A stretch of DNA of 64,000 bases from Paraspadella gotoi (GCA_051294375.1 CM119269.1:9794782-9858781), one strand, 5' to 3'. Counted from the first letter of the stretch, positions 59,408 through 62,187 are shown. Notes: generated by a model not told the origin, from the letters alone. Numbers and translations are program-made.

Positions 59408-62187
59408 ACTGGAAGAGTAGTAAAGGGTCTTCATCCCCAGTCCAGAGAAAAGCCTTCAGCGAACCAATTGACTGTCCGTTCATGTGATAAGCGAATTGAA
59501 GGCAGCCAATCTTCATGGAGTGTAAACCGTGGAGGCGAACCTGGATGATCAATCAATCAAACAATCAAAAAACCCAAACAATTTATCAAACAGCGATTCT
59601 ATCAAAAAATTAACCAATCAATCAAACATTTAAACCATCGTTTAAAAACGATCAATTAATCTGACACTAAACCAATCAATCACCTAATTAATTATCTTTA
59701 TCATTTAAACAGTATGTTTGTCAGTCAGTCGGTCAATGAATAAACCGAACAATCAGTCAAATTAATATTTAACCAACAAATCAAACAACTAACCAATAGA
59801 TCAACCAATAAATCTCACCAAGCAACGCCGCCGGGCTGTTTCCCAGACGCCTCAATGTATAGTAAGTGTCCTTCCGCCGGGTGGCCGATCGTGTATCTAC
59901 CGAGGGACCAAGTCGCGCCGGAAGGGGTCTCCCCGAAGTGGACCGTCCAGTCGAAGTCGTCCAAGTCCTGCAAGAAGGATGATTTATGGTCCATTATTTT
60001 TCAAAAGCGACTAATTTTAAACTTAAATTCAGAAATATGTTTGTTTTGCAGTTGGCATTGCAATACGTTCAGTAGTTCACCCCGTCTATAAGACTCATTG
60101 AGTAATACCATCAGCTCATAACATTAGGTGTACCGGGAATCGTTAGGACGGCCGTAAACCGCCTTGGGGGCCCGGAAAAACCCCAAGCCTGGTTCCAAGC
60201 CCAGGGCACGTTCAAAGGCTGCTAAGAGCGGTAAAAGAAGTTGCGGATAGCGCTCTACAGCCCCACTTAGCGCCTTGCACATTTTTAAGTTTAATGATGA
60301 GGTTAAAGATGAGGGATTAAGGAGTAGGTTGTGGATTTTTATTTAGTTTTGGTTAGAGTTATGGTTTAAGTTTAAGGTTAAAAAATAAAGCTTAGTATTA
60401 TGGTGGACTAAAATCCACCAACCGTTCATCAGGTGGCCATTGGTGCCGGAGGCAAGTCATTCGCCTCCCAACCAAAGGTCCGGGGTTCCAGCCCGGTGCC
60501 GCCTAGCAGTTAAGAGGGACGGGGCGCTTAACCCGCCTGTAACACGGTGTTACAGCCTGATCCGAAGCTCAGGGACTGCTTATATGAACGGTTCTTGTCC
60601 ANNNNNNNNNNNNNNNNNNNNNNNNNGGTGGCCATTGGTGCCCGGAGGCAGTCATTTCGCCTCCCAACCAAAAGGTCCGGGGGTTCTAGCAGTTTAAGAG
60701 GGACGGGTGCGCTTAACTCGCCTGTAACACGTGTACAGCCTGATCGAAGCTCGGGACTGCTTATATGAACGGTTCTGTCATTAAACACTTATCAAGTAAT
60801 TACTGTCTCTTCAGTATTATGGTTAGAGACTAGGGGTTAAAAATTATGGATTAGGGATAAGGATTGATTAATCTTTTAGAAAAAAAGATAAAATTAGATA
60901 TTTAAGTCAATTTGAAGTTTAAGGGACCCAGTGATAAAAATGATATTCATAAGCTTAAGGGGTCTATCATCAAAGGATTTGAATGGGTGATAGTCATTAA
61001 TTTTTCTTTGCACGGGAAAGTTGGCAAAAAAATTGCCTATCTCTATATTGTACGGAACAAAAATTTAATAATTATGAAAAAAAATTTAGTTGAACCCGTA
61101 CCTAAATATTTATTATAATCCATTATTTTATTTTTGCATTAGAAAGTATTTTTTACTAAATTCCAATTCTTTTATTTTTTACTGTACAAAGCTATAATTT
61201 TAGGTTTAAGCCTCATTGAACAAAGCTTTACAAGACTAATATTTTTTATATTTTTATATTTACTTAAAAGCAGACAAAATCAAATCTTAAATTCTTATTC
61301 TTACAGAAACAAAACTGTAATAATTATTAATTATATTCATATTCATCCCTTAAATGTATAATTAAACTATATTGATTCCTAATTATAACAATTAAAAATT
61401 AGCAAAGTACAGAATCTTTCTCTTTCTTTTATATTTATATTACTTCAAAGAATTTTTATTTTTCATCCAATTAACAGAATCATTTGAAAAGAAGAGTTTA
61501 AATAAAAATCAGTCGATACCTTAAATTTTGATTCATTCCTAGTTTTTTTCTTATTAAAATTTTTGTGATAAAGCCTGAAAATCTTTTTAAAATTAGATCT
61601 ACCCTTTTTTGGAAAAAAAAAATTTTAAACTGAAAAAGATTTTCTTCTTACCAATTTTTTAAAGAAAATTAAAGCGTCGCTGATTTATCGAATTTTTTAC
61701 TACTTTCCAAATGATTATAGAAAGCAAAAATTATATGATCAGAACCAGCTTAAGTTAAAGGTCAAACGTTATGTTTTTCAGCTTTTTACCCCCCCTGTTC
61801 ACTTGGTCCCCTTAAGGATTAGCAATATTTTTCTTTACCTGAATGTTGTGCCAGAGACAATATTCATCCTCAAAATTGCAGTAGCCAGAAGGAGGACATT
61901 CGCCCTCAGCGATAAATACGTCATCCAGTCCTGAATATTTATTTAAAATTAATTAATAAATATAAAACAGTTTTAATGGTTGGAGATCGATTGAATTAGA
62001 ACTTACTCAAATATAATTAATATTTATTTTGTCGTATCCCTTAATTTAATTTTAACCTTAAAATTTAACCTAAACTGTAAACATGTTCTTAACCTAATCT
62101 TGAACCCTAACCTGATCCTAACCCTGACCAAATAAACTTACCGATGTATCCTCTTGGTCCAAGTCCGATCTCAGCCTCGAATTCGAT
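58761..62187 (-). CDS. MAM/LDLa protein exons, minus-strand copy linking the upstream and middle blocks
   Basis: Same exons as 51226-54299, plus the complete exon ~58761-58988 ([15 protein letters not shown]...KVCDFEVDCINGTDERFCGTCDFEDAGSGMCGWK), which continues into DTSKGPFKW. Confidence 0.8.
60505..60580 (+). ncRNA. Twister-like ribozyme fold (P5-type permutation, atypical P1/P2)
   Basis: AGCAGUU-AAGA-GG-GA-CGG-GGCGCU-UAA-CCC-GC-C-[UGUAACA cgg UGUUACA]-G-[CCUGA U CCG AAGC UCAGG]-GACUGCU; T1 CCG/CGG and T2 GC/GC are possible. Confidence 0.55.

What the first reader, a model, noticed from the sequence alone, without database searches (positions are those of the whole stretch)
60505..60580. 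Twister-ribozyme-like fold with P1 replaced by a 6-nt palindrome: a possibly dimer-dependent twister variant
Seen: family 1 has the twister landmarks in P5-permuted order: GA plus T1 strand (CGG, 60520-22), UAA (60529-31), GC-C, a 7-bp P3, G, a 5-bp P4 with loop U-CCG-AAGC, and closing stem AGCAGUU/GACUGCU. Established: twister (Osa, Nasonia and environmental examples) has UAA-P2-GC-C-P3-G-P4[U-NNN-AAGY]...P2'-GA-N'N'N' and cleaves U^A. Deviations: P2 has only about 2 good pairs on a 3-nt strand, and P1 is just GGCGCU, too short for a hairpin but self-complementary. Inference: like minimal hammerheads with a palindromic stem III, P1 could form between two copies so that tandem transcripts cleave. 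Copies C and D (60399-60780) sit in tandem, though across an N gap. Caveat: a competing hairpin GUUAAG/CUUAAC exists.
Basis: partly seen in the sequence, partly recalled or inferred. Interest (0 to 1): 0.85.

Follow-up and report, generated by a model that had tools for sequence, protein, structure and literature searches.

The report
Palindrome-armed twister ribozyme in tRNA-headed repeat
A very common 235-base repeat in this animal genome carries a tRNA-like stretch and the pattern of a twister self-cutting RNA whose first helix is replaced by a six-base palindrome, so it likely cuts only when two copies pair; cutting is untested, and the tandem pair first reported is likely an assembly artefact.

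Summary
The twister landmarks at 60505-60580 are real and beyond chance. A second repeat family at 60133-60211 has the same layout with different helix letters and another palindrome (CGGCCG, against GGCGCU) in place of P1. Rfam misses both; all 14 control P5 twisters have a 6-12 bp P1 hairpin. The motif lies in a dispersed, very abundant 234-235 bp element with fixed ends, exact 4-bp target duplications at 2 of 2 loci and a tRNA-like part upstream: it resembles a solo LTR of Helenus-type TRIMs, or a non-autonomous Naiad derivative. Dimer-dependent cleavage remains my best guess (about 0.45), but P1 is reported dispensable, so monomer activity is a strong rival. No transcript, cleavage or two-copy element was seen. 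This scan already noted P1-less or palindrome-armed twisters in Naiad tails in other genomes; I read two such by eye in published Naiad consensi. Ten literature searches found no dimeric twister and no twister in an LTR or Penelope-like element.

The parts
60395..60398 (+). Left target-site duplication GTAT; the matching right copy follows copy D at 60814-60817
   Evidence: same 4-mer on both sides of the single copy B
60399..60601 (+). Family-1 element, copy C (cut by the gap; whole element 234-235 bp, ends TA...CA)
   Evidence: contig loose ends at 60399 and at the base matching the final CA
60401..60420 (+). Terminal 7-bp hairpin of the 35-nt leader
60420..60428 (+). 5' arm of a 9-bp inverted repeat; 3' arm at 60585-60593; together they enclose the tRNA-like part and the twister
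60434..60502 (+). tRNA-like part: A-box-like 60441-52, B-box 60484-94; predicted RNA polymerase III promoter
   Evidence: B-box pattern; cloverleaf-like fold of copy E; not called by ARAGORN or Rfam; box consensus recalled and from PMC10886601
60505..60580 (+). P5-permuted twister-type motif, family 1
60518..60522 (+). G60518 (position of the general base), A60519 and T1 strand CGG
   Evidence: role of the G from PMC11662667 section 32
60523..60528 (+). Self-complementary hexamer GGCGCU in place of P1
   Evidence: self-duplex -8.3 kcal/mol, rank 45 of 4096
60529..60531 (+). UAA; predicted cut between U60529 and A60530
   Evidence: position by analogy with known twisters (PMC8501958 section 17); untested
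60627..60813 (+). Copy D: likely the other version (haplotype or unmerged contig end) of the same insertion as C, rich in indels
62902..63135 (+). Family-1 copy E, an independent insertion with target duplication ACGA; its T1 has a C-C mismatch
52601..52820 (-). Copy B, single copy of the C/D locus in an inverted duplicate of the region
50263..50497 (-). Copy A, duplicate of the E locus, 235 bp
60133..60211 (+). Family-2 twister-type motif with the same layout; this copy is worn (P2, P5 and the general-base position); duplicates near 55586-55666 (+) and 53005-53085 (-)
60149..60154 (+). Perfect palindrome CGGCCG in place of P1 in family 2; predicted cut after U60155
   Evidence: self-duplex -10.7 kcal/mol, rank 7 of 4096

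Best explanation
The stretch has the full core pattern of a P5-permuted twister ribozyme with a six-base palindrome where P1 should be, it sits in an abundant 235-bp tRNA-headed repeat with 4-bp target duplications, and it likely cleaves when two copies in one precursor RNA pair through the palindrome. Shown: the pattern, its covariation between two families, the element's ends, target duplications and abundance. Inferred: the element is the solo LTR of a small non-autonomous LTR retroelement (about 0.55); RNA polymerase III would start at the tRNA-like part of one copy and, with no T4 terminator in the element, read into a second copy; the left half of each motif (P5 strand, P2', GA, T1') would pair with the right half of the other, the two palindromes forming one shared 6-bp P1; both U-A bonds would be cut, releasing a unit-length RNA that could be ligated into a circle, where the lone motif would be slow and so spare the template for reverse transcription. 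Step odds: twister fold real 0.9; cleaves in some form 0.75; strongly dimer-dependent 0.45. The scattered single copies in introns are likely by-products that decay.
For: Core pattern complete, 0 hits in 40 resampled windows. Family 2 repeats the layout with other letters: T1 GGA/UCC against CGG/CCG, and different P3, P4, P5; most contig depth carries G at 60140 and 60144 and C at 60208 (94-98% in run X2), which pair in P2 and P5 and fill the general-base position. Both families have a self-complementary hexamer in the P1 place, ranks 45 and 7 of 4096, while 14 of 14 Rfam-confirmed P5 twisters from viral contigs have a 6-12 bp hairpin there. The swapped dimer is a nested structure, -46.1 kcal/mol against -34.4 for two monomers in the twister fold. 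Two published Naiad consensi read by eye as P5 twisters with palindromes and no P1 hairpin. Precedent: minimal hammerheads with a palindromic stem III cleave as dimers (PMC6765202). Host: exact 4-bp duplications at 2 of 2 loci, fixed ends in many contigs, CA 3' end, no poly(A), no terminal inverted repeat, tRNA-like part inside with a leader in front; animal Helenus make 4-bp duplications (PMC10886601).
Against: No cleavage and no two-copy element were seen; the only tandem is likely an artefact. P1 is reported dispensable and P1 and P2 defects are tolerated (PMC11662667). The monomer's folding penalty (7.7 kcal/mol for C, 6.7 for B) lies inside the range of 10 controls (2.6-8.6), so an off-state monomer is not shown; two off-state monomers (-58.0) still beat the pseudoknot-free dimer. 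No compensatory change is listed within family 1; listed variants are mostly transitions, and G60564A, which breaks T1, holds 2-13% of depth with no listed partner change. Copy E has a T1 mismatch and the window's family-2 copy lacks the general-base G. Rfam twister models miss family 1 at E up to 10. The element starts TA, not TG; no primer-binding site, polypurine tract or internal region was seen; ARAGORN and Rfam do not call the tRNA-like part. A collapsed hairpin would also leave a partly self-complementary remnant.
Confidence: 0.42

Rival explanations
1. The motif is a monomeric mini-twister: the six bases are just a loop (one pair plus four bases) linking T1 to the cut site, and the palindrome is the remnant of a collapsed P1 hairpin.
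For: P1 dispensable, P1 and P2 imperfections tolerated in about 1,900 tested twisters (PMC11662667; PMC6154101); inefficient cleavage without P1 reported (PMC8501958); folding gap within control range. Only the central pair of each hexamer argues against a hairpin remnant (chance about 0.25-0.3 each).
Against: Both hexamers are self-complementary to the centre and rank in the top 1.1% as self-duplexes; the published P1 deletions leave open ends, not a closed 6-nt loop (recalled); an efficient monomeric cut in mid-element would split any single-copy or circular RNA template (inference).
Confidence: 0.28
2. Host rival (independent of the dimer question): family 1 is not an LTR but a tRNA-headed, SINE-like passenger of a Naiad Penelope-like element, its twister and 35-nt leader taken from a Naiad tail; family 2 is a Naiad end fragment.
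For: [quoted passage not shown]
Against: Both ends of family 1 are fixed and both loci have exact 4-bp duplications, whereas Naiads are highly 5'-truncated; no reverse transcriptase or GIY-YIG hit among 198 open frames of the window; no family-1 or family-2 motif in the published Naiad file.
Confidence: 0.33
3. The motif descends from a twister but no longer cuts; the element spreads without it, and the stable four-way fold with the alternative hairpin is what the RNA adopts.
For: The alternative hairpin dominates the predicted ensemble in both families; T1-breaking variants occur (copy E); no within-family covariation.
Against: The majority sequence of a young, homogeneous family keeps every catalytic and pseudoknot position, and so does the majority of a second family; about 94% of tested natural twisters were active (PMC11662667 abstract).
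Confidence: 0.2
4. The element is a DNA-level, Helentron-type non-autonomous repeat read on the minus strand (subterminal inverted repeat followed by a terminal hairpin), and the twister is captured cargo.
For: 9-bp inverted repeat with one arm directly beside a terminal hairpin; this layout for HINE elements is recalled, not read.
Against: Two different 4-bp target duplications, which rolling-circle elements are not known to make (recalled); tRNA-like promoter and twister lie on the plus strand.
Confidence: 0.07

Closest known systems
Type-P5 twister ribozyme (Rfam RF02684, clan CL00120)
   Same: Strand order, GA before T1', UAA, GC pseudoknot T2, P4 with U-NNN-AAGC loop; a 3-nt P2 strand occurs in 3 of 14 controls.
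   Different: P1 hairpin (6-12 bp in 14 of 14 controls) is replaced by a 6-nt palindrome; P2 has a bulge or mismatch; 7-bp P3 added; no Rfam match for family 1, 16 bits against a 37.6 cut-off for part of family 2.
Minimal hammerheads of Penelope-like elements that cleave as dimers (reviewed in PMC6765202 and PMC7761336; primary paper PMC5785218 not held)
   Same: A core helix shrunk to a palindrome, in a very abundant dispersed retroelement repeat; proposed shared helix between two copies.
   Different: Different ribozyme class; dimer cleavage not shown here; host ends look integrase-made.
Helenus TRIMs (tRNA-like sequence in LTRs; PMC10886601)
   Same: tRNA-like part inside a short element with a leader in front, 4-bp target duplication as in animal Helenus, CA 3' end, solo copies, size within range.
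   Different: Starts TA where nearly all listed LTRs I saw start TG; a 130-nt ribozyme-bearing part follows the tRNA-like part; no internal region seen; the paper mentions no ribozyme in Helenus and its sequence file has none of the twister loop motifs searched.
LTR retrozymes of plants (PMC4918200) and non-LTR retrozymes of animals (PMC7761336; bioRxiv 10.64898/2026.07.22.740005)
   Same: Non-coding element with an internal ribozyme; plant ones have 4-bp duplications and solo LTRs.
   Different: All described ones use hammerheads; animal ones are described as lacking LTRs and promoters and as tandem.
Twister-like motifs in Naiad tails
   Same: P5 order, palindromes and no hairpin at P1, short purine linker before a 4-nt P2' strand.
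   Different: There two 8-10 nt palindromes and a perfect 4-bp P2; here one hexamer, a 3-nt P2 strand, a long P3, and a tRNA-headed host.
T-variant twisters of Perere-3 in Schistosoma mansoni (PMC8501958)
   Same: Twisters with weak P1 in a retroelement.
   Different: Those sit at the element's 5' end with P1 partly made by the target site; here the predicted cut is mid-element and P1 is closed by a loop.

Membership tests
Twister ribozyme, type P5 | NAA cleavage loop and conserved G-A opposite it | tested here: met
   U60529 A60530 A60531; G60518 A60519; family-2 majority has G at 60144, the window copy does not
Twister ribozyme, type P5 | Two pseudoknots (3-bp T1, GC/GC T2) | tested here: met
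   3 of 3 and 2 of 2 pairs in both families, T1 letters differ between them; copy E has one T1 mismatch
Twister ribozyme, type P5 | P4 with U-NNN-AAGC loop | tested here: met
   5 of 5 pairs in both families
Twister ribozyme, type P5 | P2 of 3-4 contiguous pairs | tested here: inconclusive
   2 contiguous pairs plus a third across a bulge; 3-nt P2 in 3 of 14 controls
Twister ribozyme, type P5 | P1 hairpin within the strand | tested here: not met
   6-nt palindrome; at most one pair within the strand; reported dispensable for activity
Twister ribozyme, type P5 | Score above the Rfam RF02684 cut-off | tested here: not met
   no hit for family 1; controls 14 of 14 pass
Twister ribozyme, type P5 | Site-specific self-cleavage | not testable with these tools
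   needs an assay
Helenus TRIM (solo LTR) | 4-bp target duplication in animals | tested here: met
   GTAT and ACGA at 2 of 2 independent loci
Helenus TRIM (solo LTR) | tRNA-like sequence with A and B boxes inside the repeat | tested here: inconclusive
   B box and spacing fit, A box imperfect, cloverleaf-like fold in copy E; ARAGORN and Rfam negative
Helenus TRIM (solo LTR) | TG...CA termini | tested here: not met
   TA...CA; TG lies two bases in; one listed Helenus LTR also starts TA
Helenus TRIM (solo LTR) | Two LTRs around a primer-binding site and polypurine tract | not testable with these tools
   no whole genome held; window copies are single
Retrozyme | Ribozyme-cut circular RNA intermediate | not testable with these tools
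   only contigs were available
Naiad Penelope-like element or derivative | Link to a GIY-YIG plus reverse-transcriptase frame or a shared tail | tested here: inconclusive
   none in the window (0 of 198 frames); no motif match in published consensi; the rest of the genome not searchable

The most novel reading that the evidence does not exclude
An animal LTR retrozyme: a polymerase-III-driven miniature LTR element that carries an obligate-dimer twister, so that only the two-LTR precursor cuts itself and the released circle is stable. It would be the first dimer-dependent twister and the first ribozyme-bearing TRIM described in animals, as far as my ten searches reach.
Probability: 0.22. Interest if true: 0.9.

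Novelty: new variant of a known kind. Interest (0 to 1): 0.66.

Why it matters
If it cuts only as a dimer, twisters have reached the same solution as minimal hammerheads (shrinking a core helix to a palindrome to sense a second copy), and a 76-nt RNA makes this directly testable. Such variants escape Rfam, so very abundant ribozyme families in invertebrate genomes may be uncounted. A tRNA-promoter element with an internal ribozyme and integrase-type ends would join two classes now kept apart, Helenus TRIMs and retrozymes.

Tried and rejected
No whole genome is held, so copies could not be collected or tested with a covariation statistic. Rfam: no twister hit for family 1. Descriptor scans for relatives: viral contigs 12, 20 and 3 loci, metagenome contigs 65 (64 parsed), prokaryote genomes 42 (top 20 of 45 rows viewed): none had the full set of helices; they are chance matches. 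Distant BLAST against phages: one 24-nt match at E 9. Sequencing runs: no RNA holder listed, which is no evidence on expression; run X9 is only guessed to be RNA; run X10 laid nothing. One search lists no variant at 1% or more across P2', GA, T1' and the palindrome, but copy B's own changes nearby may hide short contigs, so I do not use it as proof of conservation. My first folding gap (11.8 kcal/mol) suggested an off-state monomer; a fair constrained fold gave 7.7, inside the control range, so I dropped that argument. A real C-D tandem was rejected; a two-LTR element with its middle hidden in the gap is not strictly excluded but the grouping argues against it. MAFFT did not align the two families in structural register, so no covariance model or pair count was built. 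Family-2 energies were computed only on the window copy as it stands. Family-2 ends (about 60048-60281, TG...CA, TTTT flanks) matched in 1 of 2 versions tested and could be chance. The supplement of PMC11662667 could not be read; it may hold short-P1 P5 twisters. PMC5785218 is not held.

Full report
Setting. The window is microsatellite-rich animal DNA with scattered exons of a MAM and LDL-receptor-class-A gene (Pfam hits; near the finding an LDLa hit at 58725-59210 on the minus strand). No whole genome is held. The motif lies on the plus strand, so likely antisense to the host gene, in an intron (exon positions read by eye).

The observation. The mapping to catalytic roles rests on PMC11662667 (sections 32, 33, 35, 38 and abstract read), PMC8501958 (abstract, sections 17, 19) and recalled numbering of the rice ribozyme. 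A strict descriptor finds only this locus (C and its duplicate B) and 0 hits in 40 windows resampled in 500-nt blocks; a looser one finds 7 sites, all copies of the two families described here. Rfam finds no twister for family 1 even at E 10.

Two corrections. The hairpin GUUAAG/CUUAAC has probability 0.00; the predicted competitor pairs G17G18 and CGGG with CCCG and CC at 0.73-0.99 and hides the core. And the C/D tandem is likely an assembly artefact: all 3 of 3 25-N gaps in the window are flanked by duplicated sequence; the region 59247-63625 has an inverted duplicate with one copy (B) where C and D stand; one pair of target duplications encloses C plus D; a third piece ends at 55885 exactly where D begins in the element; that piece and D side with B against C in 26 of 38 and 26 of 45 differing columns, the latter including one 14-column deletion. 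The window thus holds two independent family-1 insertions, C/B/D and E/A.

A second family. At 60133-60211 stands the same layout: T1' GGA, CGGCCG, UAA, a 3-nt P2 strand, GC-C, P3, G, a 5-bp P4 with loop U-UCC-AAGC. Rfam gives part of it 16 bits for Twister-P5, below the 37.6 cut-off. The window copy is worn, but contigs of three runs mostly read G at 60140 and 60144 and C at 60208 and 60180 (94-98% of depth in run X2; that table showed 40 rows and hid 45), which pair in P2, P5 and P3 and fill the general-base position. So T1, P2, P3, P4 and P5 all differ in letters between the families and still pair. In both, a 3-nt strand faces a 4-nt P2' strand whose first base can pair across a bulge. This between-family covariation is the main evidence that the fold is a twister. 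Within family 1 I saw none: listed variants are mostly C>T and G>A at 1-3%, the P3 loop varies most (32-62%), and G60564A, which breaks T1, holds 2-13% with no listed partner. Copy E has a C-C mismatch in T1.

Controls. A scan of viral contigs gave 17 loci; I dropped one duplicate and two chance matches, and 14 of 14 remaining pass the Rfam Twister-P5 cut-off. All have a P1 hairpin of 6-12 bp in a 15-30 nt region; 3 have a 3-nt P2 strand. The short P2 is therefore not unique; the 6-nt P1 is. The cost of forcing the twister fold is 7.7 kcal/mol for C and 6.7 for B, against 2.6-8.6 for the 10 controls that parsed correctly; my earlier figure of 11.8 was overstated. Five descriptor scans for relatives in viral, metagenome and prokaryote collections returned 142 loci without the full set of helices.

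The palindrome. GGCGCU and CGGCCG rank 45 and 7 of 4096 hexamers as self-duplexes; 2-7% of hexamers are self-complementary, depending on composition and G-U pairs. A dimer in which each left half pairs with the other right half is nested and scores -46.1 kcal/mol against -34.4 for two monomers in the twister fold and -58.0 for two monomers in the competing fold; pseudoknots and Mg2+ are outside this model. A collapsed hairpin would explain the outer pairs but not the central one. Earlier notes of this scan (AI notes, unchecked) describe P1-less or palindrome-armed twisters in Naiad tails of other genomes. Following that lead, I viewed the last 260-300 letters of 32 Naiad consensi in File S5 of PMC8557442: two, Naiad_Mley and Naiad-1_Movir, read by eye as complete P5 twisters with different T1 letters, a 4-bp P2 and two palindromes in the P1 place. 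The paper itself (passages and section 6 read) reports only a lack of canonical hammerheads. Against the dimer: P1 is reported dispensable and P1 and P2 defects are tolerated.

The host element. Contigs laid on the region rise from a summed depth of 60-270 in the flanks to 2-4 million over 60399-60590 in run X2, and from 180 to 4.4 million at copy B. The tool warns that this is no copy number; it points to thousands of copies or more. Loose ends with unrelated flanks pile up at 60399 (96, 54 and 23 contigs in three runs) and at the base matching the final CA (65, 59, 31, 21 contigs in four runs), so the family is mostly dispersed with fixed ends. The element is 234-235 bp, TA...CA, with exact 4-bp duplications GTAT and ACGA, no poly(A), no terminal inverted repeat and no run of four T. 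It has a 35-nt leader with a hairpin, a tRNA-like part (B box at 60484-94; A-box-like 43 nt upstream; cloverleaf-like fold in copy E; not called by ARAGORN or Rfam), the twister, and a tail; a 9-bp inverted repeat encloses the middle two (fold z -4.2). This fits a solo LTR of a Helenus-type TRIM (PMC10886601; parts 1-4 of 6 of the text, two supplement searches and supplement part 1 of 11 read), whose animal members make 4-bp duplications; that paper names no twister or crustacean and its file lacks the loop motifs searched. Plant retrozymes also have 4-bp duplications and solo LTRs (PMC4918200, passages). But the 5' end is TA, and no internal region was seen. The rival is a SINE-like passenger of a Naiad, given the twister type, the TA start and the 30-40 bp extensions of Naiads; no Naiad frame lies in the window (0 of 198).

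Mechanism. I commit to a twister that is completed in pairs: a polymerase III transcript would run from one copy into a second, the halves would swap around a shared palindromic P1, both U-A bonds would be cut, and the unit RNA could be circularised with its own motif slow. One arm of the inverted repeat lies upstream of the predicted start, so in RNA it could pair only in a two-copy or circular context, which fits. The fold, covariation, ends and abundance are shown; transcription, cleavage, dimer dependence, the two-copy precursor and the circle are inferred. The precedent is the dimeric minimal hammerhead (PMC6765202 and PMC7761336, passages; primary paper not held).

Novelty. Ten searches (listings and abstract starts) and passages of PMC13725137, PMC10085705 and bioRxiv 10.64898/2026.07.22.740005 gave no dimeric twister and no twister in an LTR or Penelope-like element; PMC7761336 mentions unpublished truncated twisters at RTE 5' ends. 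Subscription papers and the unreadable supplement of PMC11662667 may hold such cases. Within this scan the variant class was noted before; what is new here is the single-hexamer form in two families and the tRNA-headed host with integrase-type ends. Verdict: new variant of a known kind, interest 0.66.

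Noticed in passing
window 60133-60211 (+): Second twister-type family with palindrome CGGCCG; its P4 loop also matches the polymerase III B-box pattern exactly. Host element unknown; tentative ends about 60048-60281.
   Followed up: partly
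File S5 of PMC8557442, records Naiad_Mley and Naiad-1_Movir: Complete P5-type twister patterns with two palindromes in the P1 place, not remarked on in the passages of the paper that I read.
   Followed up: partly
L108, L111, L112 (viral contigs): Rfam-confirmed P5 twisters with a 3-bp P2, shorter than the usual four.
   Followed up: partly
window 30080-37287, 49766-55885, 63610-64000: Large duplicated and inverted pieces that include host exons, next to 25-N gaps; the assembly holds several versions of the same locus, so repeats counted in this window are inflated.
   Followed up: yes
window 47633-47714 (-): tRNA-Ser(GCT) gene, 65.6 bits.
   Followed up: no
window 60290-60398 and 60814-60880; also 6613-6690, 51284-51364, 62050-62133: Degenerate TTAGG/TAACCC-like tracts; the family-1 copy C is inserted in one.
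   Followed up: no
window 60919-61000, 31405-31487, 35092-35172: A further short dispersed repeat of about 80 bp, 93-97% alike.
   Followed up: no
window 12368-59210: Exon fragments of a long MAM and LDLa domain gene, on both strands, likely through scaffold inversions.
   Followed up: partly
window 60516-60537 and 60145-60163: Both families can form the same alternative hairpin (GG, bulged A, CGG paired with CCG, CC) although it lies in a different register relative to the twister core; unexplained.
   Followed up: partly
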